Origin: Trypanosoma brucei
Taxonomy: Eukaryota
Reading direction: 5' to 3'
Assembly: GCA_000002445.1 (NCBI GenBank)
Contig: CP000068.1
Location: 1,216,001-1,280,000 of the forward strand
DNA: 64,000 nucleotides
The notes beneath the pieces were generated by a model. It searched no databases. It had not been told where the DNA came from and saw nothing but the letters and a program-made list of their open reading frames with translations. The position numbers and the translations under genes are program-made. This document shows, in pieces, positions 12,864-61,612 of this stretch (the stretch's first letter is position 1; the number at the start of each line of letters is the position of its first letter).

Positions 12864-13988
12864 ATGCTCTCTGTGAGTCCGCCACTTCGGCGTTACCGCC
12901 TTTTCCATCCGCGGCGGGAGGCGATACCGATGCATATGTGCCCTGCTAAGACAATATTTCCGCTCATTAACAGCAACAATCTCCTTGTGAAGACGCGTAA
13001 CAGTTGGGAGGACTTCACTGGGAGAAAAGAGTTCGATGAAGATCACCCACTTCCAGTTGTTGGGTCGCGACTAAATGGCCGCACTACCCAACATAAATGG
13101 AATCACTGGGATCAATACCTCAACCCACAAATCACACAGTCGATTAAAGACTTAACACCAACTCCCGAATATGTGGGAATGCGCTGCGGCCACAATATGA
13201 TCAAAATGGGATGGATGAAAATAGGCGGGAGCTGGAAGTATTCAAGGGGATACAATGACAGACGCCGAGTGTTCGCAAGAGGGCAATGGCAGGAACGTAA
13301 AATGACTCCCCGCTTCATGCTTGCCCCTCGTGTCTCAGCCGGTGGCCCTCGCAATCGTTACGAAGGAAAGTTGGTGTTTTCCCCACTGAGGCTCAGCAAA
13401 CTTCTTTGGGCCATCGATACAGGTCGAATAAACCCCAATGAAGTGATAACACTGTACCACCTGCGGCAGGCCAATGTTGTGGGGGAACGCGAAATTGTGT
13501 GGCCTGGATTTGTGCTTATAAGCAATGGTGTGCGCCGTGTACCTTACCCCATTCATATCGAATTACAAAATGCATCGGCTGAGAGCATTCGTCTTATTGA
13601 AGAAGCGGGTGGTTCCTTCACGTGTGTATATATGACGCATGAAGGTCTATACCAGGAACTGCATCCCGAGGAATATCCAATATTTATGGACCAGGAACTG
13701 CCGGAGCGCCGCGGCCTCGAGAGTTTAGCGACAAACCCCAGCAAACGTGGTTGGTTGACACGCTGGTATGAAGACAGCAGTAAATACGCACATCCCGCCG
13801 CGGGGCGCCGCTATTCTCATTATCTGAAACCGCCGACCGAACGAGATTTCCCCGCCACAGTGGAGGAATATGAAATGGTGAAACATCATCAAAAATGGCA
13901 CCTCAATCAACCGGGAACCGGAACGTTGCTTCCTTGGCATTCTTACAACACGGCGGATTTGGTAAAGCGAGCGGCAGGTCGTTTGTAG
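12864..13988 (+). CDS. Mitochondrial ribosomal protein uL15m-like.
   Basis: C-terminal block NASAESIRLIEEAGGSF resembles the bacterial L15 C-terminus (…ARAAIEAAGGKIE). The central LSKLLWAIDTGRINPNEVITLYHLRQANVVG resembles the L15 core. There is an N-terminal basic, presequence-like region. Overall similarity is weak. Confidence 0.5.
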   Translation: MLSVSPPLRRYRLFHPRREAIPMHMCPAKTIFPLINSNNLLVKTRNSWEDFTGRKEFDEDHPLPVVGSRLNGRTTQHKWNHWDQYLNPQITQSIKDLTPTPEYVGMRCGHNMIKMGWMKIGGSWKYSRGYNDRRRVFARGQWQERKMTPRFMLAPRVSAGGPRNRYEGKLVFSPLRLSKLLWAIDTGRINPNEVITLYHLRQANVVGEREIVWPGFVLISNGVRRVPYPIHIELQNASAESIRLIEEAGGSFTCVYMTHEGLYQELHPEEYPIFMDQELPERRGLESLATNPSKRGWLTRWYEDSSKYAHPAAGRRYSHYLKPPTERDFPATVEEYEMVKHHQKWHLNQPGTGTLLPWHSYNTADLVKRAAGRL

Positions 13989-16900
13989 AGATAGATGCCG
14001 CCGATTTTTTCTTCTTTTTGCGTTTCGCCTTGCCACAATATGCGCGGCTGGGCAGTCTACACATGGAACTGAAAGGAACTTTTGCGCTTTGGGAGGGTTT
14101 GGGGTTGTTGACACTTGGTTTGTTGTCGTTGTTGTCGTTGGTATGGCGAAATAATGTGTTTAATTGTTTTCGGTCGTTCGCTCACATTCCCATATCCTTT
14201 CGGCAAAAAAGTACAGGAGTGGTGCGGGAAGAAATCTTTGTTTTTTTTTTTTTGAAAACTTGCGTCGGGAATGCTTTGGGCTTACGTTTTTTCTCGGATT
14301 GGTAACCTTCACCCCTCTTTTTTTCTATTACTCAGCAGTCGTCTGCAAGAGGGTGTAACTTTTAAGTGCCAAACATGCTTGACTCCGTACGTCCACCGCT
14401 AACGGAAGTCGAGTGGTTGACCAGTGTCAGAGCTTTTATGGAGTTTGTTCGACAAAAGGGGCCAACTCCTTTCCAATTTGATTTTTGACCTGCTCGAAAC
14501 CCCAGACTAATTTATCACGTGGATGGTCAACTGACCATTGAAAACGGGAATCTAATGGTTTATTTTGACCAACAGCATAAAATGGAGATGGCTTCATGAA
14601 GACAATCAATGGTAAGCTTCACATTTCCAAGGAATGCGGATTTCCCCATGGAAAGCGAAGAGGCGCGAGCAGCTCTACAGACGGAGTGGGCGACAACATT
14701 GGGAGCCACAGAATCAGCGCTTTATTATCAGTTTGAAAGTGCATGTGCCCAAATGGCTGATGAAAATTTTCGGGTGCAACCGAATGCAAGCGAACTGCTG
14801 CTTTGGTGCATGCAGCAACAACTAACGCAAATGCAAGAAAAAATAAAACGGCAGGCCTAAACGATTGAAGCGTTGCAGAAACAGATGACGGCTCCAGAAG
14901 GGAAAAAAAGCTAAAGAAGAAAAGAGCCAGCAACGTCCCGGAAATAATGATGATGGAAAGTTTAAACTTATGGACCAATGGGTATTGGAGGGACACACGG
15001 AACAACAGGCGACAACAACTGCTCCTCTTCCCAGAGTGGTAAGTATGAGAGGTGCTTTCCAGGGCTTACGAGAGAAGGCGTCGCCGTTTGGGATAAGAAG
15101 AGAGGAAAAGATGCGCTCCTTTGATGGCGCAGTGGATTACACGAAGCGCAGGGGTCCCAATCAACTTATCACGGCTTACCAATATGTGTTCCCCGCGACT
15201 GTATCACCGGACCCAGTGTACAGGGAAACACGGAAAATCTTTGTGTCATGGCTTATGGGACCGCAGAATGGAATTATATCAGAGGGGTATTAACGATTGG
15301 GAAAACACTTTTATACGCAGTTGCGCTTGATTCAAACTGTTTAAGACAACCCTGGGGTGAGAATGCAGGATATCCGCGATGCTATAGAATTCCCTCACAA
15401 AAAGGACTACATATTCCTGCAATCCGCTCTAAAAGCAAAGAAACAGAAACAATCGATTCTACTGAACCAGTAACGATGTTACACATGCGGTCGAGTGGGG
15501 CATTACAGTGCAACCTTTAGGATAAACAAGACGGCATCAGAAAAGAGACCAAAAAGATACAACAGACCCCCGAAGCAATGAACTCAAACGCCCTTCATGA
15601 TAGCGTAGCTAAAGTTTCACAAAATAAATGCCTTGTGGACCATTTTGCAGTGGAAAAACATAAGCCGTGCAGGAGGAAATAACCCGAAAAAAGGCGAGAG
15701 CAGCATGGCACATGAAAATAAAACATTCCGCAACAGCCGATCAACGGATGGGGAGGGGTTTTCCACAAGGAGGTAGAGTGGCTCTGCTAACGGTTTTACA
15801 CCGAAAAACAGCAGCAAAATCTATCAACGGAGTAACTATTGTTATTCCAGTTCCCACGCGAAATGATCCATACATCTTGGCGTTGGCCTCAGAAGCCAAC
15901 AGAATAGCAATGTGAATGTGGGAATGATTTCCCTTCCGTGGATTTGACAGAGGATGATGCAAGCAGCGAGTAAACAATTTGATGAGGTTTGGAGCATTAT
16001 GAATAGCACAGATGATGTGGAAAGAGAGAAAGTATCAAACAAGGAGTCTGAAATTGCACATTGCAGAAAAGTATGCCCAAATAATGAAGCAGCCGCGTAT
16101 CATTGGCCCAGTTTCAGAGAGACACGACAGGATGAGTTGTGTGCCATTATTTGTGATGGAAGAAAAACAGAATTGGAAGAAGGCGTTTGTTTATTGCATG
16201 ACCAAAGGCTAAAAAGAGCAGGGATGATTATGAGGCATATCTCCCATTGGGTCACTTTTCCCAGTATTTAAATACTCTCCATGACCAGTCTGTGGCATTG
16301 TTTGATCTAAAGTCATTCCTCTCCCAAGTGAAGTTACCTGAGGATATTCGGGCAGGGTTCCGATACGTTAGCAAAAATGAGGAATTAGTGAATTTGAATC
16401 GACTCCCCATCAGTTAATAAAGAGAGCCCTGGAATTTTACACACCATTACAAAGCTCTTTTTAGAAGGCGCCGATGTCGTGAAGCTGCAGCAGGCGACCC
16501 CTGAAAGATTGAGGACTCAAACATGGATATGCAACATATGTATTAGTGTGAGGCGCATGACGTGGTTAAATGTCGTGGAAACAAAATAGTTACGAGCATG
16601 GAGGAATGTGGGGCACACTATCATTGGTGACTCACAAAAGATGACACAACAATGCGATTTTATTGGAGTTTTAGTTTAAACATGAAAACCAGACAGTATG
16701 GCTGGGACAACGAAAGTGATACAACAATTCCGAGTATCCCTTGCTATGTGAAAAAAACTACCATAGAATAAATGGAAACTGTTGTATCACGCATGATGTA
16801 CGTGACAGCAGTGAGAAAACAATAGCTTTCTTAATACTACTGCTACTTATTTTTTTAAATGGTAGCATGATATTTGTCATTATGCAATATGGTCCTGATG

Positions 16901-18180
16901 CGACCCAATAATTTAACCGTGCCACCACACACAGACACATACACATACACATATGCGCTACAGCTAAAAAAAAAATGGATGTGCATTTTGATAAAGAAAA
17001 CACCAATGAATTCGCCGCGAGTTGTAGCAACTGTGACCATGATGGTAACGGATTCTTCCACGCAAAGATGATGGGGACGGTTTTACAATTCCTCAATTCG
17101 GAAAAGAAGTTCTTAACTGAAAGTGGTGCTTGTGAAACTGCGGTCCAGTTGTGAATATTTGCCTTCTGAAAGAGATGGAAGAGTCTCGCACATGTATGCG
17201 TGAACGACACGGCGGTGATGCATAATATTATTATTATTAAAAATATGGTGGGAATTGCAACACACATTCCAATGCCATGGTTCATGAGGCTTTAGCCATA
17301 GATGGAGTGTGTTGCAAAATGGAAAGATTAATTTTTCACAGAGTTACGTGACCTCAGGAGGATAACCTCGCGGGTGCCCAAAGGTCAAGCAAAGTGGAGC
17401 ACGGGAAGTGAGTGAAGTGCGCTTTCAGACACTTCCACATCGTAAATCATAGTGGTGGTTAAATGATTATATCGTTTTCTCTTTTTTTTTTTCAGATATG
17501 ACTCACATCTAATCAAAGCACATTGTTTGAGAGGAAACATTTTTTTTTCTCTTCCTTGTTATTCTTTCTATTAACTCTGTTAGAGGGAAATCAGGCTAGA
17601 CCATTCCTTCTATTTGATACTAGAAGCCATTGACCGGTTTTGTCGATTGTCATCTCCTCTTCATGCTCTTTTCCTATTATTATTTTTCTTTTTTTTTCAG
17701 GGCGGGATGTGCGTCTGCAGCGTCATTTAGGCCGTCTTTAACCACTGAACGAGGCAAAAGAGGTTTTGAAACAAGGTTAAACGCAGACAACCTTCTTCGC
17801 AATGGGAAAAAAAAAATTGAACACCACCGAGTGGCGTCAGTGATGACGCTGCACTTTGGAAAACCGGTGCATTATATTTGGGAACAAGGGTAGAAGGCGA
17901 CATAGAGCTTATTTGTTTGTTTTTAGTGCCCTGTTCCTTTTTGTGCAGTGGCAACAACTCTTCACTTGGTAGGAATACTCCACCAATTCACACAAGCACA
18001 TTAGCCTCCGGTAGAGAAGGTGACGAGACTCATTTAACCAACAAGTGACGTATTCCTGTAGCGGCTGCCGCATTTTTCGCAGCTCTGATCGTGGCGGTGC
18101 AAACGTGGTTTAGTGTAACCACATCTTTTCTGCAACATTCAGAAAAAGAAAGAGAGATAGTGAAAGCATGTTCTTTATCT

Positions 18181-18190
18181 GGGGGGGGGG
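18181..18190. repeat. G10 homopolymer followed by aGGGaGG.
   Basis: Direct read; it sits inside the gene-poor interval. Confidence 0.9.
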
Positions 18191-20330
18191 AGGGAGGCGT
18201 CCGGTGACGCCTTCATGCTTCTCCCAGTTTCTTCGGGCTTCTATATTTAAGCAGGTTGATCTACAAAGTACCAAAAGTCTAGCGGTGGCCGCTTGTGTGC
18301 GTTATCCCCTCTTAACCCAAGTTGTTTTGTTTACTGGTTTTGGTGCAGTGTGAGAGTTTGTGGATGTATGCGCACGTCTTCCACTTAACCTCACTTCCAT
18401 GAGGAAGTTACCGCTGCGGCCAGCTGGCTTCGGGATCGAGCTTCCTCGTGCAACATTTGTGTGGTCTTAGTTTCCTATAATTTTCCAAAGTTTGCGTGTT
18501 CCGTAACGTTGCCCCTAGCAGTCGGTAGCGGATTTTCCTTTGTCTCTTCATCCTCTTCCGGGTTAACTGCTGCGTTTTCCTCATCATCATATTTATGTTC
18601 TGTTGCGCTTTTCTTCCTAACGCAGCCGACCTATTTCCGCTGCCTGCAGCATCACTTTTAACTGCTCCCCGACATCTCCTTGGAACATTGAAATCGATGC
18701 GAGAACTCAAACCTCGCGCTGGGAATTACCTCCACAACGTTGGGCATTTAATCCTTCCCTCACCCGGGGTTTTGCGGTCGTCTCGTAATCCTTCCTTGCT
18801 ACCAACCATTGATGGAAGCCGCGTTTCAACAACTGATCGTGTGTGAGATCTTTCGTTTTTTTTTTGTTCCTTAGTGTTCCCATCGAAGCTGCGACGCGAC
18901 CGCTGGGCTAATGTTAGCGCGAGCCCCACCACAGCCGTCGCTTCCGTCTCCCGCCTCCCCCCGTTTGAGCATATCTGAACCACTTTTCGCTGCGCCTAAT
19001 CTCCTCCAAATTGACCCCCATGAACCAGGTGTCGCTCCTTGTTTCCTCATCCAGTGGCCGCAGCGTGTCTGCGGTAATCGCTTAAAACGGACCTCATCCA
19101 GGGACTTTTCCTTTCGCGCGTTGAAAATTTGGGCCCCTTGTCTGCCAATGTTTCTTCCGCTCGTTCCCGCACATTGGATAAGGAACAAACCGTTCGGTTA
19201 TTTCAGCTGCGTTCTTCCCTGTGCGGTGCCGGTTTGTCCAACGAGTGGTGTGGGAGCCCAATTGACATGTCCGATAGGTCTCTTGTAACAGCTGCGATGC
19301 TATGAAATTAGGCTGATGAAAAACGCCTAAGCAAGGTCTGTAGCGAGTCACCCTTCGTGGCCAGGAGCACATACGCATTCGTTGCCACATTGTTGACAAT
19401 ATTACGAACTTCTCAACAAAACGTCCCCAGCCCTCACTTCAGTTTGTCACACGGGACCGTTCGTCTCGATACTAGTCTGGATGTTCCCATCATGCTCGAC
19501 GAAGAGCGATAAGCAAAGACCGACGTCGGGAGGAATGAAAGGGCCACGTCGCATCTCGGCGTTTTTTTCGGGAGGGGGAGCCCTGCGTGCTCACGGGGCG
19601 TTAACTATTTCGACAGCTGCACCGCCGACGCTGTCACCATTTTTTAAAAAACCTACAGGGTTTTAGCTGCCGGTTCGCGCCGGCGAAAATGGCCCCGGCG
19701 CCGATGTGAGATAGTTGCTTTAGGGGAGATGATTTATTGCTGAAAAGGAATGTGGGTGGAAACAAAAGGATCGTCTAAATTTCAAAGGGTATAATCAACA
19801 AAGCATGAGAATGAAAAATTTATCAGAATGTCCTTTCAACCCCTTAGATCGGAATTTGCTTTTTTTCAGGACTCACGTTTGTACGAATGGCCGCGCCCGA
19901 AAACGAAAAGGAGTTTTAGTTACAGGCTGTAAGGGCACGGGCATTCGCTGAGTTGACAAACAGCGAATGGGGACGAAGGGTCTATTTGGCCTTTAATTCT
20001 CCAATTTTTTAAATTCGTTTGTGCACGTGTGCAAGGCACATTTTTTTCCTTTTTCCTGGCACCGCGCAGCGCAGCAAATACTTGAGCGGTGCTTCAGGGG
20101 AGGTAAATCCTCCCGAGAAGATAAAGAAGAAGGCCTCTGTTTCATCTGAGAACATAAATTAAGTGCAAGCAAGTGCAAAATAAATACATGGCGAGGCGCC
20201 ACAACTAGAGCACACACTGGAAGAAGGAGGGGCATGTATCCTGTTAGTCTAACCCATCATTTTCCTCTCTTTTTTTCCGGTATGGTTTTAGAGAGTCTTC
20301 AAAAAGGTCGTAAAGGCGAAGGTGTGAAAC

Positions 20331-21764
20331 ATGGCACAGGGCAAAGCTGCTTTTTTACTAATATTGTGTGTTTGCTCCTGCTGGCACCTCTCTTCAGCGG
20401 ACACAGAAGCGATCAAGGAAACAGCAATCAGAGAAGTGTGTGAGCTTTCAAAAACATTGAAAGGCACACCCTTTGCCATAACTCAGAGATGGAAACATAT
20501 CGAGGCCTTGATTTCGACCTTTGAGAGGTTGCTGCGAAGACTGGAGTTAATTAACCTTCTGTGCTGTGAAGACGAAGATAGCGTAAGCATTTTGAAACTC
20601 TACACCCAAAGCCAGATTGCAAGTTTAGAAGTGCTAATGAAGGCTCTTATGGAAAGGGGACCGAACGCCGCGGCGTTCGCGGCATACGCAGCAGGGAGGT
20701 TGGATGAGTTTGTTGCCGTATTCACGCAGTCGGTGGGGAAGACACCGCGAACAAACGCGTGCGTAATTGCGGATTCCGGCATGAGAAGGTGGGACCAGGC
20801 AGCGGCGAATGGATGTGAGCATAACGTAGTGGGAAACGCGGCTCAGAATTTCCTTGATTTGGAAGTCTTATTGAAAACGACATTGTTGACAAGAGGAAAC
20901 CAAAAGGGAGAAAGCAAGCAGTGCCCACTAACAAAGAGCGATTTGAGTGGCTATGCGACGGTGGACGACGCCCCTGACAGAATAAAGTGGGCAGGCGGGC
21001 TTTTGACCGTACACAAAATGTATGGATGGAAAGAAGACGGATGGTCTACAAACGGAAGGAACGTCGAATTCATCAAAGAGGCGGCAGAACAATTCAAAGA
21101 AATTAAAAAAGTCCTCGAGAAACAGCTGCCGAACGGCCTTGACAGCATCGACGCACTAAACGCTTTTTTGAAAAGGGAAGAGCCGGACGCGATGATGAAA
21201 GATGCAATCAAAACGCACCAGGGGTGGGAAGAAGAGAAAGACGATAAAACGATAATTGAGAAAATCAAGGAGATATTTGGAATTGGGGAACCATGTGCAA
21301 AGATTGAATTTATCGAAACGCTTATAAGGACTAATGTTTCTGCTAGAGAATCGGGCTGCACAAAGCAAATTGACTTGTTTCAACTCACTACTCGGCAAAT
21401 GGAAGAAGTAAAGGAACGCCGCCTCGATCAATTACGTAAAACGAAGACAGAAGCGGAGAATTATCCACGGGACATGGCAAAATTGTCGGCATTAAAAACT
21501 AATACAAACACAAAGCAAGGTGAGTACGGAGAGTGCCAGTTTCTATGCAAGCGATACAAGAACGCTAAAGCAGAAAACGAGGCAACGGATGCCGCACCCA
21601 ACTCTCCGGCAGCAGCAAGGAAGTGTCGTGGGAAAACGGAAAACGATTGCAAAGATGAGTGCAAATGGGACGGAAATGTCTGCAAAAATTCGGACGAAAC
21701 ATCAGATTACTCCAGAGTGTGTTACTCCCCTCTTTTTCCAGTCTTACTTCTTTCCTTATTTTAG
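20331..21764 (+). CDS. VSG-related (variant-surface-glycoprotein-like) protein in a chromosome-internal position.
   Basis: N-terminal signal peptide MAQGKAAFLLILCVCSCWHLSSA. A long helical N-domain with scattered Cys. A C-terminal Cys motif CRGKTENDCKDECKWDGNVCKNS typical of VSG type-2 C-terminal domains. It ends in the hydrophobic tail SPLFPVLLLSLF, like a GPI-addition signal. 477 aa. Confidence 0.6.
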   Translation: MAQGKAAFLLILCVCSCWHLSSADTEAIKETAIREVCELSKTLKGTPFAITQRWKHIEALISTFERLLRRLELINLLCCEDEDSVSILKLYTQSQIASLEVLMKALMERGPNAAAFAAYAAGRLDEFVAVFTQSVGKTPRTNACVIADSGMRRWDQAAANGCEHNVVGNAAQNFLDLEVLLKTTLLTRGNQKGESKQCPLTKSDLSGYATVDDAPDRIKWAGGLLTVHKMYGWKEDGWSTNGRNVEFIKEAAEQFKEIKKVLEKQLPNGLDSIDALNAFLKREEPDAMMKDAIKTHQGWEEEKDDKTIIEKIKEIFGIGEPCAKIEFIETLIRTNVSARESGCTKQIDLFQLTTRQMEEVKERRLDQLRKTKTEAENYPRDMAKLSALKTNTNTKQGEYGECQFLCKRYKNAKAENEATDAAPNSPAAARKCRGKTENDCKDECKWDGNVCKNSDETSDYSRVCYSPLFPVLLLSLF

Positions 21765-35964: not shown

Positions 35965-36261
35965 CTGCCTCTACAGTTTGCGCATTGACTTTACTACAAA
36001 CTTCACTTTTGATATCGGGCCAAGAAGGGTAATGACCATGATACAAACAGTGTGAAAATAAAGCAGGTGACTAAAGCAACAATGATAAAAAGGGTGCAAA
36101 TAAACGTCGAGGGAGCCCAACAACATGCTCACAGAAGTGTTGGAAACAGCCTCACACGCACGATACTTCATACCACGTATGCGATAAAACTAAAACCTCC
36201 CCCCACACACCCCTTGTTTCCTTCTCCCAATCTCCCTGTAGTTTTGTCCTGAGAGGCGGTT

Positions 36262-54988: not shown

Positions 54989-55291
54989 TTATGCATAACC
55001 GTACAGAATCTTGCCGCGCTTGCGAAGCGCATTGACCACGTCAACAGCCGTTACAGTTTTTTTGCGGGAGTACTCAGTGTATGCCGTCGCATCACGAACA
55101 ACACCCTCCACAAATGACTTTAGCACACCACGCACCTCGTCGTAGATAACGCCAGAGATGCGTTTCACTCCACCACGGCGGGCGAGGCGGCGGATGGAAC
55201 CGCGGGTGATTCCGCGCACATTCTCACGGAGGACCTTCTTCTGGCGCTTCTGCGATCCCTTAGCCTCACCACTCTTCTTACCCTTCGCCAT
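54989..55291 (-). CDS. H4: Histone H4 (copy 1).
   Basis: 100-aa product [100 protein letters not shown]. This is the trypanosomatid H4 signature with a conserved histone-fold core. The ATG is at 55289-55291. The 170-aa ORF-track entry is an upstream in-frame extension through the spacer. Confidence 0.95.
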
Positions 55292-55353
55292 ATTGTATGT
55301 GCTGTTTGTGCTTGTAGTTTGCTTTCTGTACATCAGAACATACACATGTAACG

Positions 55354-55386
55354 TAAGAGAAAGGGATGAAGAAGGAGGAGTTGAAA
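55354..55386 (-). promoter_or_regulatory. Representative polypyrimidine tract (read on the - strand) plus downstream AG acceptors upstream of each H4 CDS. It repeats at +736 n in most units.
   Basis: The reverse complement reads ttcaactcctccttcttcatccctttctcttac, followed by ...acAGaaagcaaactacaAGcacaaacagcacatacaatATG. This is the kinetoplastid trans-splicing signal arrangement, implying a 5' UTR of about 30-45 nt. Confidence 0.5.
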
Positions 55387-55724
55387 TGGGAATAGTAGAA
55401 TCACTAAAAGAAATGGCAGAGTGTGGTGGCACGGCACAGGCCCGCATTCGGATATTTGTGCCCGCGCAACTCACACAGAGAGATTTGTGCGGCCACAACA
55501 AGAAAATGGCACCGCAATCGCATCTCCAGATGATCTAGTGAGGAGTGTATGGCACAGAAGGGAAGTTAAAATAAAGTAAAGTGAGAAAAATGGAAAGAAA
55601 AAAGATATATCTTTGGTGAGGCAGAGGAGGGATGTTACCATTACGGTGTATCAACCTCCTGGCCATCTGCTATCTAAGTGCGGAGCGGCAACAACGCCGT
55701 CTCAACGAACACACCTCTTGTGCA

Positions 55725-56027
55725 TTATGCATAACCGTACAGAATCTTGCCGCGCTTGCGAAGCGCATTGACCACGTCAACAGCCGTTACAGTTTTTTTG
55801 CGGGAGTACTCAGTGTATGCCGTCGCATCACGAACAACACCCTCCACGAATGACTTTAGCACACCACGCACCTCGTCGTAGATAACGCCAGAGATGCGTT
55901 TCACTCCACCACGGCGGGCGAGGCGGCGGATGGAACCGCGGGTGATTCCGCGCACATTCTCACGGAGGACCTTCTTCTGGCGCTTCTGCGATCCCTTAGC
56001 CTCACCACTCTTCTTACCCTTCGCCAT
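55725..56027 (-). CDS. H4: Histone H4 (copy 2).
   Basis: Identical 100-aa product; 736-bp offset. Confidence 0.95.
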
Positions 56028-56460
56028 ATTGTATGTGCTGTTTGTGCTTGTAGTTTGCTTTCTGTACATCAGAACATACACATGTAACGTAAGAGAAAGG
56101 GATGAAGAAGGAGGAGTTGAAATGGGAACAGTAGAATCACTAAAAGAAATGGCAGAGTGTGATGGCACGGCACAGGCCCGCATTCGGATATTTGTGCCCG
56201 CGCAACTCACACAGAGAGATTTGTGCGGCCACAACAAGAAAATGGCACCGCAATCGCATCTCCAGATGATCTAGTGAGGAGTGTATGGCACAGAAGGGAA
56301 GTTAAAATAAAGTAAAGTGAGAAAAATGGAAAGAAAAAAGATATATCTTTGGTGAGGCAGAGGAGGGATGTTACCATTACGGTGTATCAACCTCCTGGCC
56401 ATCTGCTATCTAAGTGCGGAGCGGCAATAACGCCGTCTCAACGAACACACGTCTTGTGCA

Positions 56461-56763
56461 TTATGCATAACCGTACAGAATCTTGCCGCGCTTGCGAAGC
56501 GCATTGACCACGTCAACAGCCGTTACAGTCTTTTTGCGGGAGTACTCAGTGTATGCCGTCGCATCACGAACAACACCCTCCACAAATGACTTTAGCACAC
56601 CACGCACCTCGTCGTAGATAACGCCAGAGATGCGTTTCACTCCACCACGGCGGGCGAGGCGGCGGATGGAACCGCGGGTGATTCCGCGCACATTCTCACG
56701 GAGGACCTTCTTCTGGCGCTTCTGCGATCCCTTAGCCTCACCACTCTTCTTACCCTTCGCCAT
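56461..56763 (-). CDS. H4: Histone H4 (copy 3).
   Basis: Identical 100-aa product. It carries the synonymous aaa to aag variant (the + strand reads cagtcttttt instead of cagttttttt). Confidence 0.95.
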
Positions 56764-57196
56764 ATTGTATGTGCTGTTTGTGCTTGTAGTTTGCTTTCTG
56801 TACATCAGAACATACACATGTAACGTAAGAGAAAGGGATGAAGAAGGAGGAGTTGAAATGGGAACAGTAGAATCACTAAAAGAAATGGCAGAGTGTGGTG
56901 GCACGGCACAGGCCCGCATTCGGATATTTGTGCCCGCGCAACTCACACAGAGAGATTTGTGCGGCCACAACAAGAAAATGGCACCGCAATCGCATCTCCA
57001 GATGATCTAGTGAGGAGTGTATGGCACAGAAGGGAAGTTAAAATAAAGTAAAGTGAGAAAAATGGAAAGAAAAAAGATATATCTTTGGTGAGGCAGAGGA
57101 GGGATGTTACCATTACGGTGTATCAACCTCCTGGCCATCTGCTATCTAAGTGCGGAGCGGCAACAACGCCGTCTCAACGAACACACCTCTTGTGCA

Positions 57197-57499
57197 TTAT
57201 GCATAACCGTACAGAATCTTGCCGCGCTTGCGAAGCGCATTGACCACGTCAACAGCCGTTACAGTTTTTTTGCGGGAGTACTCAGTGTATGCCGTCGCAT
57301 CACGAACAACACCCTCCACAAATGACTTTAGCACACCACGCACCTCGTCGTAGATAACGCCAGAGATGCGTTTCACTCCACCACGGCGGGCGAGGCGGCG
57401 GATGGAACCGCGGGTGATTCCGCGCACATTCTCACGGAGGACCTTCTTCTGGCGCTTCTGCGATCCCTTAGCCTCACCACTCTTCTTACCCTTCGCCAT
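57197..57499 (-). CDS. H4: Histone H4 (copy 4).
   Basis: Identical 100-aa product; 736-bp offset. Confidence 0.95.
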
Positions 57500-57932
57500 A
57501 TTGTATGTGCTGTTTGTGCTTGTAGTTTGCTTTCTGTACATCAGAACATACACATGTAACGTAAGAGAAAGGGATGAAGAAGGAGGAGTTGAAATGGGAA
57601 TAGTAGAATCACTAAAAGAAATGGCAGAGTGTGATGGCACGGCACAGGCCCGCATTCGGATATTTGTGCCCGCGCAACTCACACAGAGAGATTTGTGCGG
57701 CCACAACAAGAAAATGGCACCGCAATCGCATCTCCAGATGATCTAGTGAGGAGTGTATGGCACAGAAGGGAAGTTAAAATAAAGTAAAGTGAGAAAAATG
57801 GAAAGAAAAAAGATATATCTTTGGTGAGGCAGAGGAGGGATGTTACCATTACGGTGTATCAACCTCCTGGCCATCTGCTATCTAAGTGCGGAGCGGCAAT
57901 AACGCCGTCTCAACGAACACACCTCTTGTGCA

Positions 57933-58235
57933 TTATGCATAACCGTACAGAATCTTGCCGCGCTTGCGAAGCGCATTGACCACGTCAACAGCCGTTACAG
58001 TCTTTTTGCGGGAGTACTCAGTGTATGCCGTCGCATCACGAACAACACCCTCCACAAATGACTTTAGCACACCACGCACCTCGTCGTAGATAACGCCAGA
58101 GATGCGTTTCACTCCACCACGGCGGGCGAGGCGGCGGATGGAACCGCGGGTGATTCCGCGCACATTCTCACGGAGGACCTTCTTCTGGCGCTTCTGCGAT
58201 CCCTTAGCCTCACCACTCTTCTTACCCTTCGCCAT
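57933..58235 (-). CDS. H4: Histone H4 (copy 5).
   Basis: Identical 100-aa product; synonymous variant as in copy 3; a unit-specific spacer SNP (ggctac instead of ggccac, near 58437). Confidence 0.95.
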
Positions 58236-58668
58236 ATTGTATGTGCTGTTTGTGCTTGTAGTTTGCTTTCTGTACATCAGAACATACACATGTAACGTAA
58301 GAGAAAGGGATGAAGAAGGAGGAGTTGAAATGGGAATAGTAGAATCACTAAAAGAAATGGCAGAGTGTGGTGGCACGGCACAGGCCCGCATTCGGATATT
58401 TGTGCCCGCGCAACTCACACAGAGAGATTTGTGCGGCTACAACAAGAAAATGGCACCGCAATCGCATCTCCAGATGATCTAGTGAGGAGTGTATGGCACA
58501 GAAGGGAAGTTAAAATAAAGTAAAGTGAGAAAAATGGAAAGAAAAAAGATATATCTTTGGTGAGGCAGAGGAGGGATGTTACCATTACGGTGTATCAACC
58601 TCCTGGCCATCTGCTATCTAAGTGCGGAGCGGCAATAACGCCGTCTCAACGAACACACGTCTTGTGCA

Positions 58669-58971
58669 TTATGCATAACCGTACAGAATCTTGCCGCGCT
58701 TGCGAAGCGCATTGACCACGTCAACAGCCGTTACAGTCTTTTTGCGGGAGTACTCAGTGTATGCCGTCGCATCACGAACAACACCCTCCACAAATGACTT
58801 TAGCACACCACGCACCTCGTCGTAGATAACGCCAGAGATGCGTTTCACTCCACCACGGCGGGCGAGGCGGCGGATGGAACCGCGGGTGATTCCGCGCACA
58901 TTCTCACGGAGGACCTTCTTCTGGCGCTTCTGCGATCCCTTAGCCTCACCACTCTTCTTACCCTTCGCCAT
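58669..58971 (-). CDS. H4: Histone H4 (copy 6).
   Basis: Identical 100-aa product; synonymous variant as in copy 3. Confidence 0.95.
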
Positions 58972-59404
58972 ATTGTATGTGCTGTTTGTGCTTGTAGTTT
59001 GCTTTCTGTACATCAGAACATACACATGTAACGTAAGAGAAAGGGATGAAGAAGGAGGAGTTGAAATGGGAATAGTAGAATCACTAAAAGAAATGGCAGA
59101 GTGTGATGGCACGGCACAGGCCCGCATTCGGATATTTGTGCCCGCGCAACTCACACAGAGAGATTTGTGCGGCCACAACAAGAAAATGGCACCGCAATCG
59201 CATCTCCAGATGATCTAGTGAGGAGTGTATGGCACAGAAGGGAAGTTAAAATAAAGTAAAGTGAGAAAAATGGAAAGAAAAAAGATATATCTTTGGTGAG
59301 GCAGAGGAGGGATGTTACCATTACGGTGTATCAACCTCCTGGCCATCTGCTATCTAAGTGCGGAGCGGCAATAACGCCGTCTCAACGAACACACCTCTTG
59401 TGCA

Positions 59405-59707
59405 TTATGCATAACCGTACAGAATCTTGCCGCGCTTGCGAAGCGCATTGACCACGTCAACAGCCGTTACAGTCTTTTTGCGGGAGTACTCAGTGTATGC
59501 CGTCGCATCACGAACAACACCCTCCACAAATGACTTTAGCACACCACGCACCTCGTCGTAGATAACGCCAGAGATGCGTTTCACTCCACCACGGCGGGCG
59601 AGGCGGCGGATGGAACCGCGGGTGATTCCGCGCACATTCTCACGGAGGACCTTCTTCTGGCGCTTCTGCGATCCCTTAGCCTCACCACTCTTCTTACCCT
59701 TCGCCAT
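59405..59707 (-). CDS. H4: Histone H4 (copy 7).
   Basis: Identical 100-aa product; synonymous variant as in copy 3. Confidence 0.95.
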
Positions 59708-60140
59708 ATTGTATGTGCTGTTTGTGCTTGTAGTTTGCTTTCTGTACATCAGAACATACACATGTAACGTAAGAGAAAGGGATGAAGAAGGAGGAGTTGA
59801 AATGGGAATAGTAGAATCACTAAAAGAAATGGCAGAGTGTGATGGCACGGCACAGGCCCGCATTCGGATATTTGTGCCCGCGCAACTCACACAGAGAGAT
59901 TTGTGCGGCCACAACAAGAAAATGGCACCGCAATCGCATCTCCAGATGATCTAGTGAGGAGTGTATGGCACAGAAGGGAAGTTAAAATAAAGTAAAGTGA
60001 GAAAAATGGAAAGAAAAAAGATATATCTTTGGTGAGGCAGAGGAGGGATGTTACCATTACGGTGTATCAACCTCCTGGCCATCTGCTATCTAAGTGCGGA
60101 GCGGCAATAACGCCGTCTCAACGAACACACCTCTTGTGCA

Positions 60141-60443
60141 TTATGCATAACCGTACAGAATCTTGCCGCGCTTGCGAAGCGCATTGACCACGTCAACAGC
60201 CGTTACAGTTTTTTTGCGGGAGTACTCAGTGTATGCCGTCGCATCACGAACAACACCCTCCACAAATGACTTTAGCACACCACGCACCTCGTCGTAGATA
60301 ACGCCAGAGATGCGTTTCACTCCACCACGGCGGGCGAGGCGGCGGATGGAACCGCGGGTGATTCCGCGCACATTCTCACGGAGGACCTTCTTCTGGCGCT
60401 TCTGCGATCCCTTAGCCTCACCACTCTTCTTACCCTTCGCCAT
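60141..60443 (-). CDS. H4: Histone H4 (copy 8).
   Basis: Identical 100-aa product; 736-bp offset. Confidence 0.95.
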
Positions 60444-60876
60444 ATTGTATGTGCTGTTTGTGCTTGTAGTTTGCTTTCTGTACATCAGAACATACACATG
60501 TAACGTAAGAGAAAGGGATGAAGAAGGAGGAGTTGAAATGGGAATAGTAGAATCACTAAAAGAAATGGCAGAGTGTGGTGGCACGGCACAGGCCCGCATT
60601 CGGATATTTGTGCCCGCGCAACTCACACAGAGAGATTTGTGCGGCCACAACAAGAAAATGGCACCGCAATCGCATCTCCAGATGATCTAGTGAGGAGTGT
60701 ATGGCACAGAAGGGAAGTTAAAATAAAGTAAAGTGAGAAAAATGGAAAGAAAAAAGACATATCTTTGGTGAGGCAGAGGAGGGATGTTACCATTACGGTG
60801 TATCAACCTCCTGGCCATCTGCTATCTAAGTGCGGAGCGGCAATAACGCCGTCTCAACGAACACACCTCTTGTGCA

Positions 60877-61179
60877 TTATGCATAACCGTACAGAATCTT
60901 GCCGCGCTTGCGAAGCGCATTGACCACGTCAACAGCCGTTACAGTTTTTTTGCGGGAGTACTCAGTGTATGCCGTCGCATCACGAACAACACCCTCCACA
61001 AATGACTTTAGCACACCACGCACCTCGTCGTAGATAACGCCAGAGATGCGTTTCACTCCACCACGGCGGGCGAGGCGGCGGATGGAACCGCGGGTGATTC
61101 CGCGCACATTCTCACGGAGGACCTTCTTCTGGCGCTTCTGCGATCCCTTAGCCTCACCACTCTTCTTACCCTTCGCCAT
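60877..61179 (-). CDS. H4: Histone H4 (copy 9).
   Basis: Identical 100-aa product; 736-bp offset. Confidence 0.95.
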
Positions 61180-61612
61180 ATTGTATGTGCTGTTTGTGCT
61201 TGTAGTTTGCTTTCTGTACATCAGAACATACACATGTAACGTAAGAGAAAGGGATGAAGAAGGAGGAGTTGAAATGGGAATAGTAGAATCACTAAAAGAA
61301 ATGGCAGAGTGTGGTGGCACGGCACAGGCCCGCATTCGGATATTTGTGCCCGCGCAACTCACACAGAGAGATTTGTGCGGCCACAACAAGAAAATGGCAC
61401 CGCAATCGCATCTCCAGATGATCTAGTGAGGAGTGTATGGCACAGAAGGGAAGTTAAAATAAAGTAAAGTGAGAAAAATGGAAAGAAAAAAGATATATCT
61501 TTGGTGAGGCAGAGGAGGGATGTTACCATTACGGTGTATCAACCTCCTGGCCATCTGCTATCTAAGTGCGGAGCGGCAATAACGCCGTCTCAACGAACAC
61601 ACCTCTTGTGCA

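What the first reader, a model, noticed from the sequence alone, without database searches (positions are those of the whole stretch)
20331..21764. Intact VSG-like gene embedded in a housekeeping polycistron rather than a subtelomeric array
The ORF has the hallmarks of a VSG: a cleavable signal peptide, a roughly 350-residue helical N-domain, a type-2-like C-terminal Cys motif C-x3-C-K-W-D-x3-C-K, and a hydrophobic GPI-type terminus LLLSLF. Yet it sits between a mitoribosomal gene and a strand-switch region in the chromosome core. Such VSG-related genes are thought to have acquired non-antigenic functions. The ORF is intact, with no frameshift or stop, which argues for selection.
Basis: partly seen in the sequence, partly recalled or inferred. 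Interest (0 to 1): 0.6.

Follow-up and report, generated by a model that had tools for sequence, protein, structure and literature searches.

The report
Known core-chromosome atypical VSG gene Tb927.5.3990
The ORF is a real, intact, selectively maintained VSG-family gene of Trypanosoma brucei chromosome 5, but it is already annotated (Tb927.5.3990) and already used as a model locus for premature transcription termination, so the finding is correct and not new.

Summary

It is identical to T. b. brucei TREU927 XP_845069.1, "VSG, atypical, putative", Tb927.5.3990. Full-length syntenic orthologues occur in T. b. gambiense and T. equiperdum. dN/dS is about 0.2 (15 synonymous vs 12 non-synonymous sites, p = 1e-4).

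It is a singleton: the nearest relative is 26% identical. It lacks 70-bp repeats, the VSG 3'UTR 16-mer and the canonical GPI signal.

It is not truly embedded in the housekeeping polycistron. It lies 6.3 kb beyond the last housekeeping gene (mitoribosomal uL15), next to a convergent strand switch. Published work shows that Pol II terminates upstream of it at base J/H3.V chromatin, and that loss of J, H3.V or PJW/PP1 derepresses it. A tsetse salivary-gland transcriptome singles it out as the one differentially expressed VSG.

Protein function is untested. Verdict: already known, low interest.

The parts
20331..21764 (+). Complete CDS of the atypical A-type VSG gene (477 aa plus stop). Identical to T. 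b. brucei TREU927 XP_845069.1 / AAZ11510.1, i.e. Tb927.5.3990.
   Evidence: ORF list. Exact sequence look-up. Pfam PF00913 E 7.5e-76. The gene number follows from the neighbour Tb927.5.4010 and from the gene order in PMC4150806.
20331..20399 (+). Predicted signal peptide, residues 1-23 (MAQGKAAFLLILCVCSCWHLSSA, cleavage before D24).
   Evidence: Hydropathy profile and -3/-1 small residues read from the sequence. No dedicated predictor was available, so the cleavage site is inferred.
20400..21485 (+). Class-A VSG N-terminal domain, about residues 24-385. It has long antiparallel helices plus lobes, the conserved Cys 37, 144, 162 and 198, and one N-glycosylation sequon at N335.
21624..21689 (+). 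C-terminal 4-Cys subdomain, residues 432-453 (C-x7-C-x3-C-KWD-x3-C-KN).
   Evidence: phmmer hit to the ILTat1.24 C-terminal subdomain 2jwh, E 2.3e-4. Pfam PF10659 at 20.9 bits, just under the 21.4 cut-off. pLDDT 86-87 for residues 431-450. Same spacing as the canonical VSG tails listed.
21690..21761 (+). 24-residue C-terminal tail SDETSDYSRVCYSPLFPVLLLSLF. It occupies the position of the VSG GPI-addition signal but is diverged from the canonical SSILVNKKFALSVVSAAFVALLF.
   Evidence: Comparison with the C-termini of 41 VSG homologues, plus the hydropathy profile. GPI addition was not testable here.
20260..20291 (+). Polypyrimidine tract (TTTTCCTCTCTTTTTTTCC) followed by AG. This is the likely trans-splice acceptor, about 40 nt upstream of the ATG.
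   Evidence: Sequence read directly. The function is inferred from the general trypanosome splice-signal architecture.
13989..20330 (.). 6.3-kb ORF-poor spacer between mitoribosomal uL15 and the VSG gene. According to published maps it holds the base J / H3.V 'PTU-internal termination' zone.
   Evidence: No ORF over 175 aa, no Pfam domain, tRNA, Rfam family or repeats. About 95% identical, with many indels, to the T. b. gambiense and T. b. equiperdum loci (97.6% over the 3.1 kb held for T. equiperdum OVI), against 98.6-98.8% (99.6% in OVI) for the CDS. Termination upstream of Tb927.5.3990 is reported in PMC4150806, PMC4721609, PMC7055916 and PMC11229358. The epigenetic marks themselves cannot be seen in sequence.
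12864..13988 (+). Last housekeeping gene of the polycistron: mitochondrial ribosomal protein uL15 (Tb927.5.3980).
   Evidence: Exact look-up: it sits in one 90%-identity cluster with PDB 7AOI chain AP. Pfam Ribosomal_L27A.
22375..22845 (+). Small ORF, presumably Tb927.5.4000, the nominal last gene of the unit. Its coding status is doubtful.
   Evidence: Annotated as a 156-aa gene in T. b. gambiense. The frame is broken by 1-nt indels in both T. equiperdum assemblies. No Pfam hit.
22846..23170 (.). Convergent strand-switch region between the last plus-strand ORF and the first minus-strand gene (Tb927.5.4010).
   Evidence: ORF orientation map. GC-skew sign change around 22-24 kb.

Best explanation
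This is Tb927.5.3990, a single-copy, chromosome-core, 'atypical' A-type VSG gene of Trypanosoma brucei chromosome 5.

Shown here. It encodes a secretory protein with a full class-A VSG N-domain fold, one intact VSG C-terminal 4-Cys subdomain and a hydrophobic C-terminal tail. It is conserved full-length, in synteny and under purifying selection across Trypanozoon genomes. It has no close paralogue. It lacks the cis-elements that make a VSG usable for antigenic variation: upstream 70-bp repeats, the 3'UTR 16-mer, the canonical GPI signal and a subtelomeric position.

Shown by others. It is the first gene beyond a 'PTU-internal' RNA polymerase II termination site. Base J and histone H3.V mark the DNA upstream of and over it. 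In bloodstream forms Pol II stops before it, so it is nearly silent. Removing J, H3.V, PNUTS, Wdr82, JBP3 or PP1-1 causes read-through and derepression.

Inferred. Base J is made only in bloodstream forms, so this arrangement could act as a stage gate. It would keep an invariant VSG-fold surface protein off in the mammal and allow expression in tsetse salivary-gland or pre-metacyclic stages, where its transcript has been reported. There the protein would serve a non-variant surface role, such as ligand binding or coat component, rather than antigenic variation.
For: Identity: exact match to XP_845069.1 'VSG, atypical, putative'.

Family and fold:
- PF00913 E 7.5e-76, with no B-type hit.
- AF2 model pLDDT 80.3, pTM 0.73.

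Conservation:
- 477-aa orthologues in the same gene order in T. b. gambiense and two T. equiperdum assemblies.
- At most 13 of 477 residues differ between any two of six strains or subspecies, with no indels.
- dN/dS 0.22, 0.19 and 0.13.
- 15 synonymous vs 12 non-synonymous segregating sites against a 21:79 neutral expectation, p = 1e-4.
- By contrast, the upstream spacer is only about 95% identical in two of the three genomes (97.6% in the third), and the downstream small ORF is frameshifted in both T. equiperdum assemblies.

Singleton status: an exhaustive phmmer search of 1.8 billion representatives finds a next-best hit at 26% identity. There is no other VSG fragment in the window.

Missing VSG cis-elements.

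Termination and derepression: PMC4150806, PMC4721609, PMC7055916, PMC11229358.

Insect-stage transcript: it is the only VSG differentially expressed in the salivary-gland parasite library (PMC3998935). It is also listed among developmentally regulated transcripts in the RBP6 system (PMC7952579).
Against: - The protein has never been detected or localised in anything I could find.
- The reported derepression is from very low levels and modest in absolute terms (PMC7055916).
- The direction and size of the salivary-gland and RBP6 expression changes are not stated explicitly in the text I read.
- The GPI signal is atypical: with N453 as the attachment (omega) site, the residue two positions after it is Asp, and the hydrophobic stretch contains two prolines. 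Surface anchoring is therefore uncertain.
- The selection test rests on only 27 variable sites in four closely related, non-independent genomes, and it ignores transition bias.
- H3.V is not known to be stage-specific, so loss of J alone may not open the gate.
Confidence: 0.85

Rival explanations
1. Silent archive gene. The ORF is simply a VSG that was transposed into the core. It serves, if at all, as a sequence donor for gene conversion or mosaic VSG formation, and J/H3.V-regulated transcription modulates its use as a donor.
For: Reynolds et al. 2016 raise this possibility for VSG genes at the ends of internal PTUs (PMC4721609). The protein has a complete VSG architecture. It is catalogued in the Lister 427 and EATRO1125 VSG repertoires as VSG 625 and VSG 1125.382.
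Against: No 70-bp repeats or (TRR)n tracts lie upstream, and there is no conserved 3'UTR 16-mer. The nearest VSG is only 26% identical, too distant for segmental conversion. The locus is orthologous and nearly identical across subspecies. [quoted passage not shown]
Confidence: 0.06
2. Functionless relic. The gene is a recently immobilised VSG copy that is silenced and is drifting towards a pseudogene. Intactness would only reflect the short divergence time among Trypanozoon.
For: It is nearly silent in cultured bloodstream forms (PMC7055916). The GPI signal is diverged and the first C-terminal subdomain is degenerate, with only 2 Cys at 402 and 406. It is annotated 'atypical', a class defined as possibly unable to fold or be modified properly (PMC2854126). 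It is absent from the syntenic T. vivax locus.
Against: Non-synonymous changes are significantly depleted (p = 1e-4; dN/dS about 0.2). There are no indels or stops in six strains. Over the same evolutionary distance the adjacent spacer accumulated many indels and the adjacent small ORF was frameshifted. All four canonical N-domain cysteines are retained.
Confidence: 0.1
3. Low-abundance bloodstream-form surface protein. Leaky read-through gives enough mRNA for a minor invariant VSG-fold receptor in the mammalian stage, by analogy with the transferrin receptor or the VSG-related proteins.
Confidence: 0.12

Closest known systems
Canonical class-A variant surface glycoproteins (e.g. ILTat1.24, VSG2/MITat1.2, VSG1/MITat1.1, mVSG531)
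   Different: Core-chromosome position rather than subtelomeric, minichromosomal or expression-site. No 70-bp repeats. No 3'UTR 16-mer. Diverged GPI signal. Degenerate first C-terminal subdomain. Orthologous and nearly invariant across subspecies rather than part of a fast-turnover repertoire. Lies in a Pol II unit rather than a Pol I expression site.
VSG-related (VR) genes and core 'VSG/ESAG islands' of T. brucei (Marcello & Barry 2007 as cited in PMC2771046; Jackson et al. 2010, PMC2854126)
   Same: Chromosome-internal position at a strand-switch region, no 70-bp repeats, and orthologous conservation between T. b. brucei and T. b. gambiense.
   Different: The databases label it 'VSG, atypical' rather than VR. 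Its nearest relatives in my search are ordinary repertoire VSGs at 20-26% identity. I could not place it against named VR sequences. Many VR genes are bloodstream-upregulated, whereas this one is reported silent there.
Trypanosome transferrin receptor ESAG6/ESAG7
   Different: ESAG6/7 form a heterodimer of tandem paralogues, lack the VSG C-terminal domain and sit in expression sites. This gene is single-copy, keeps a C-terminal subdomain and aligns better (more residues, higher Z) with true VSGs.
Base J / H3.V 'PTU-internal termination' loci (Reynolds 2014, 2016; Kieft 2020, 2024)
   Same: This very locus is the published example. Pol II terminates before Tb927.5.3990 and Tb927.5.4000, and read-through and derepression follow loss of J, H3.V, PNUTS, Wdr82, JBP3 or PP1-1.
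   Different: Nothing differs. The sequence adds only that the spacer is 6.3 kb and lacks any recognisable gene, RNA family or repeat.
SRA and TgsGP (VSG-derived human-serum resistance proteins)
   Same: VSG-derived, non-variant proteins with acquired functions.

Membership tests
A-type VSG N-terminal domain (Pfam PF00913) | Significant match to the family profile above the curated threshold | tested here: met
   256.2 bits against a cut-off of 22.1, E 7.5e-76, residues 9-362 on profile positions 2-361 of 367.
A-type VSG N-terminal domain (Pfam PF00913) | Class-A VSG three-dimensional fold (long helical hairpin core with top and bottom lobes) | tested here: met
A-type VSG N-terminal domain (Pfam PF00913) | Conserved cysteine framework of the N-domain | tested here: met
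   C162 is invariant, C144 and C198 are at least 90% conserved, and C37 falls in a consensus Cys column in the 41-sequence alignment A1. The disulfide pairing itself was not checked.
VSG C-terminal domain (Pfam PF10659) | Match to the C-terminal domain profile; 4-Cys subdomain(s) | tested here: inconclusive
   20.9 bits, just below the 21.4 cut-off. One subdomain (C432, C440, C444, C451) matches ILTat1.24 2jwh at E 2.3e-4 and is modelled confidently. The preceding region has only two Cys (402, 406) and low pLDDT.
Functional antigenic-variation VSG | Canonical, highly conserved GPI-addition signal (17 or 23 residues ending ...LLF) | tested here: not met
   The tail is SDETSDYSRVCYSPLFPVLLLSLF, against SS[IF]L[VL]NKKFALSVVSAAFVALLF in homologues. 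It has the same position and similar length but a different sequence. Real GPI addition is not testable here.
Functional antigenic-variation VSG | Conserved 16-mer TGATATATTTTAACAC in the 3'UTR (motif recalled from my own knowledge) | tested here: not met
   No match within 3 mismatches anywhere near the gene. The only window hit is at 36050 on the other strand, at chance level.
Functional antigenic-variation VSG | Upstream 70-bp repeats; subtelomeric array, minichromosome or expression-site location | tested here: not met
   No tandem array or (TRR)n run in 13000-20330. A 70-bp core motif recalled from memory is absent. The flanks are housekeeping genes, and there is no other VSG fragment in 64 kb.
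VSG-related (VR) / core VSG island genes | Chromosome-internal position at a strand-switch region, without 70-bp repeats, orthologous between subspecies | tested here: met
   Definition taken from PMC2771046 and PMC2854126.
VSG-related (VR) / core VSG island genes | Phylogenetic placement within the named VR clusters of Marcello & Barry | not tested
The database name is 'VSG, atypical'.
PTU-internal termination locus | Base J and H3.V enrichment upstream of the gene, and read-through on their loss | not testable with these tools
   These are epigenetic marks and transcription assays. They are taken from PMC4150806, PMC4721609, PMC7055916 and PMC11229358.
Transferrin receptor ESAG6/7 | Tandem heterodimer-forming paralogues lacking the VSG C-terminal domain | tested here: not met
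   Single copy in the window. It retains a C-terminal subdomain. Structural similarity is lower than to VSGs.

The most novel reading that the evidence does not exclude
Tb927.5.3990 may be a developmentally gated, invariant VSG-fold surface protein. The bloodstream-specific base J terminator would keep it off in the mammal, hiding a non-variant epitope from antibody. It would be transcribed once J is lost in the fly, where the protein would act at the salivary-gland, epimastigote or pre-metacyclic surface, for example as a ligand-binding receptor or coat precursor. That would be a concrete case of Pol II termination serving as a life-cycle switch for a surface antigen.
Probability: 0.25. Interest if true: 0.5.

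Novelty: already known. Interest (0 to 1): 0.15.

Why it matters
As a discovery it matters little. The gene is in GenBank and TriTrypDB as an atypical VSG. Core VSG-like genes at strand-switch regions have been described as a class since 2005-2010. This exact locus is the standard reporter for base J/H3.V/PJW-PP1-dependent Pol II termination.

This re-examination adds three things:
- A quantified case for purifying selection.
- A confident class-A fold assignment.
- The point that the protein's function and stage of expression remain untested, even though the locus is heavily used.

If the stage-gate idea were confirmed, it would link epigenetic transcription termination to surface remodelling during transmission.

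Tried and rejected
- The single-sequence AlphaFold model was useless (pLDDT 37). It was replaced by a model built from a 41-sequence alignment.
- The word-indexed homologue search returned only the gene's own cluster. The exhaustive phmmer search was needed to see distant VSGs.
- I looked in the 6.3-kb upstream spacer for a decayed gene, retroelement, snoRNA or tRNA cluster, or repeats. I found nothing recognisable. The only repeat family was polypyrimidine tracts.
- tblastn of the protein against the whole window found no VSG pseudogene fragments.
- I tried to fetch the T. congolense syntenic locus through its uL15 protein. It was not on record.
- The T. vivax locus was retrieved and has no VSG-like gene there.
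- I tested whether Tb927.5.4010 is a paralogue of the neighbouring factor H receptor. There is no meaningful similarity.
- I considered filing the gene as a transferrin-receptor-like or SRA-like derivative and rejected both on structure scores and architecture.
Their absence is backed by the tandem-repeat scans but is not a curated test.

Full report
**1. The observation**

The window carries an uninterrupted 477-codon ORF at 20331-21764 on the plus strand. It is the only ORF longer than 175 aa between 13989 and 23170.

- An N-terminal signal-peptide-like segment, MAQGKAAFLLILCVCSCWHLSSA|D.
- A helix-rich domain of about 360 residues.
- The motif C432-x7-C440-x3-C444-KWD-x3-C451-K.
- A hydrophobic end, ...VCYSPLFPVLLLSLF.

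The upstream neighbour, 12864-13988, is mitochondrial ribosomal protein uL15. It belongs to the same 90%-identity cluster as PDB 7AOI chain AP and hits Pfam Ribosomal_L27A. Plus-strand ORFs stop at 22845 and minus-strand genes start at 23171, so there is a convergent strand switch about 1.1-1.4 kb downstream.

**2. What it is**

Sequence family:
- Pfam gives PF00913, the A-type VSG N-domain, at E 7.5e-76 over residues 9-362. No B-type VSG family is reported at E up to 1.
- The VSG C-terminal-domain profile scores 20.9 bits against a 21.4 cut-off.
- Residues 424-453 match the solved ILTat1.24 C-terminal subdomain 2jwh at E 2.3e-4.

Structure:
- A single-sequence AlphaFold run failed (pLDDT 37).
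- With an alignment of 40 distant VSG homologues the model reached pLDDT 80.3 and pTM 0.73, with most of the N-domain above 90.
- Foldseek gives the same set.
- The four cysteines that frame class-A N-domains (C37, C144, C162, C198) fall in conserved columns.

**3. Identity**

[quoted passage not shown] The next-but-one accession is Tb927.5.4010. Together with the gene order printed in Reynolds et al. 2014 (3980, 3990, 4000, 4010), this makes the gene Tb927.5.3990 on chromosome 5.

The same 90% cluster holds 477-aa proteins from T. b. gambiense DAL972, two T. equiperdum assemblies, Lister 427 ("VSG 625") and EATRO1125 ("VSG 1125.382").

**4. Conservation and selection**

I fetched the orthologous loci from T. 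b. gambiense, T. b. equiperdum and T. equiperdum OVI. Gene order is the same, and the ORF is 1434 nt with no indel or stop in each.

- Nei-Gojobori dN/dS is 0.22, 0.19 and 0.13.
- Across the four genomes there are 15 synonymous and 12 non-synonymous variable sites. Neutrality predicts about 21:79 (binomial p = 1e-4).
- As internal controls, the 6.3-kb upstream spacer is only about 95% identical, with dozens of indels, in two of the three genomes (97.6% over the part held for the third). The small ORF downstream (22375-22845, presumably Tb927.5.4000) is frameshifted in both T. equiperdum assemblies.
- No two of the six strain proteins differ at more than 13 of 477 positions.

The sample is small and the genomes are closely related, but the signal consistently points to purifying selection. 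The syntenic T. vivax locus has no VSG-like gene after uL15, so the gene was either acquired in the T. brucei lineage or lost in T. vivax.

**5. How it differs from a working antigenic VSG**

- It is a singleton. An exhaustive HMMER search of 1.84 billion representatives finds nothing closer than 26% identity, and the best hits are ordinary repertoire VSGs.
- There is no other VSG fragment in 64 kb.
- There are no tandem or triplet-repeat tracts upstream and no match to a 70-bp-repeat core.
- There is no 3'UTR 16-mer.
- The C-terminal tail occupies the position of the 23-residue VSG GPI signal, directly after CK[D/N], but reads SDETSDYSRVCYSPLFPVLLLSLF instead of the near-invariant SSILVNKKFALSVVSAAFVALLF.
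- The region where a first 4-Cys subdomain would lie has only two cysteines and low model confidence.

These departures fit the database label "atypical". The layout resembles VSGs with 23-residue signals.

**6. How it is expressed (literature)**

The gene is not functionally embedded in the housekeeping polycistron.

- Reynolds et al. 2014 show this chromosome 5 region (genes 3980, 3990, 4000, 4010) as a site where base J regulates Pol II transcription and J and H3.V co-localise. Across their data set, blocking J synthesis raises the transcripts of genes downstream of such J peaks (PMC4150806). Kieft et al. 2020, citing that work, state that at this site read-through follows inhibition of J synthesis or deletion of H3.V.
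- Kieft et al. [quoted passage not shown] They show read-through on depletion of PNUTS, Wdr82, JBP3 and PP1-1 (PMC7055916, PMC11229358).
- Reynolds et al. 2016 describe the general phenomenon (PMC4721609).

In the sequence, the corresponding interval is a 6.3-kb spacer (13989-20330). It has no recognisable gene, Pfam domain, tRNA, Rfam family or repeat. A polypyrimidine tract plus AG at 20260-20291 provides a plausible trans-splice acceptor for the gene.

**7. Likely role**

Base J is reported to be bloodstream-specific (PMC4150806). A tsetse salivary-gland transcriptome names Tb927.5.3990 as the single VSG differentially expressed in the salivary-gland parasite library (PMC3998935). It also appears in a table of developmentally regulated transcripts in the RBP6 differentiation system (PMC7952579), although the direction of change is not stated for it.

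My best reading is that this is an invariant VSG-fold secretory or surface protein. It is kept off in the mammal by a J/H3.V terminator and is available in fly stages. The first half of that reading is shown. The stage gate and the protein's function are inference.

Rival readings are set out with their evidence in the rivals section:
- A silent donor for mosaic VSG formation.
- A decaying relic.
- A minor bloodstream-form receptor.

**8. Comparison with what is known, and novelty**

VSG-like genes at chromosome-internal strand-switch regions without 70-bp repeats are an established class (PMC2771046; PMC2854126; PMC3605285). Some of their products have been found at the bloodstream surface (PMC4587319).

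This gene is annotated, catalogued in two VSG repertoires, and used as a reporter locus. The finding is therefore correct but already known. What remains open is the protein's function and stage of expression.

**9. Surroundings**

Across the strand switch lie two surface-protein genes:
- Tb927.5.4010 (23171-24085, minus strand), a fast-evolving protein with a signal peptide and a hydrophobic tail. dN/dS is 0.8-1.35.
- The factor H receptor Tb927.5.4020 (26055-26873, minus strand; PDB 6xz6 at E 1.4e-132; PMC7067766).

In T. vivax the equivalent region carries HpHbR-family genes. A tandem histone H4 array occupies about 54989-61389.

Noticed in passing
window 26055-26873 (-): 272-aa GARP-family ORF (PF16731, E 4e-51). 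It is the T. brucei complement factor H receptor, Tb927.5.4020: PDB 6xz6_A matches at E 1.4e-132. It lies just across the strand switch from the VSG-like gene.
   Followed up: yes
window 23171-24085 (-): Tb927.5.4010, a hypothetical protein with a signal peptide, an acidic low-complexity middle and a hydrophobic tail, and no Pfam hit. It evolves fast between Trypanozoon genomes: 92.8-96.9% nucleotide identity, with indels, and dN/dS 0.8-1.35. This suggests relaxed or diversifying selection on a surface protein. It shows no detectable similarity to the adjacent factor H receptor.
   Followed up: partly
window 22375-22845 (+): The small ORF annotated as the last gene of the unit, presumably Tb927.5.4000 (156 aa in T. 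b. gambiense). It is broken by 1-nt indels in both T. equiperdum assemblies, one of them in an A-run. It is probably not a conserved coding gene, or these are assembly homopolymer errors.
   Followed up: partly
window 13989-20330: A 6.3-kb spacer with no ORF over 175 aa and no Pfam, Rfam, tRNA or repeat feature. It diverges faster than the flanking genes: about 95% identity with many indels in two of three related genomes. According to the literature it holds the base J/H3.V termination zone. No sequence signature explaining J placement was found.
   Followed up: partly
window 54989-61389 (-): Head-to-tail array of nine near-identical ORFs spaced 736 bp apart (with one 960-bp gap), with a histone-fold hit. 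It is consistent with the chromosome 5 histone H4 tandem array. One copy (57933-58418) has a different ORF start.
   Followed up: no
L004 (T. vivax, syntenic locus) 13072-20573: Downstream of T. vivax uL15 there is no VSG-like gene. Instead there are retroelement-like ORFs, including a DVERNPG 2A-like motif, and then three HpHbR-family (PF20933) genes on the opposite strand. The convergent strand-switch region thus seems to be a niche for surface-protein genes in both species, filled by different families.
   Followed up: partly
window 22946-22958: A run of about 12 C residues lies in the middle of the convergent strand-switch region, between the last plus-strand ORF and Tb927.5.4010.
   Followed up: no
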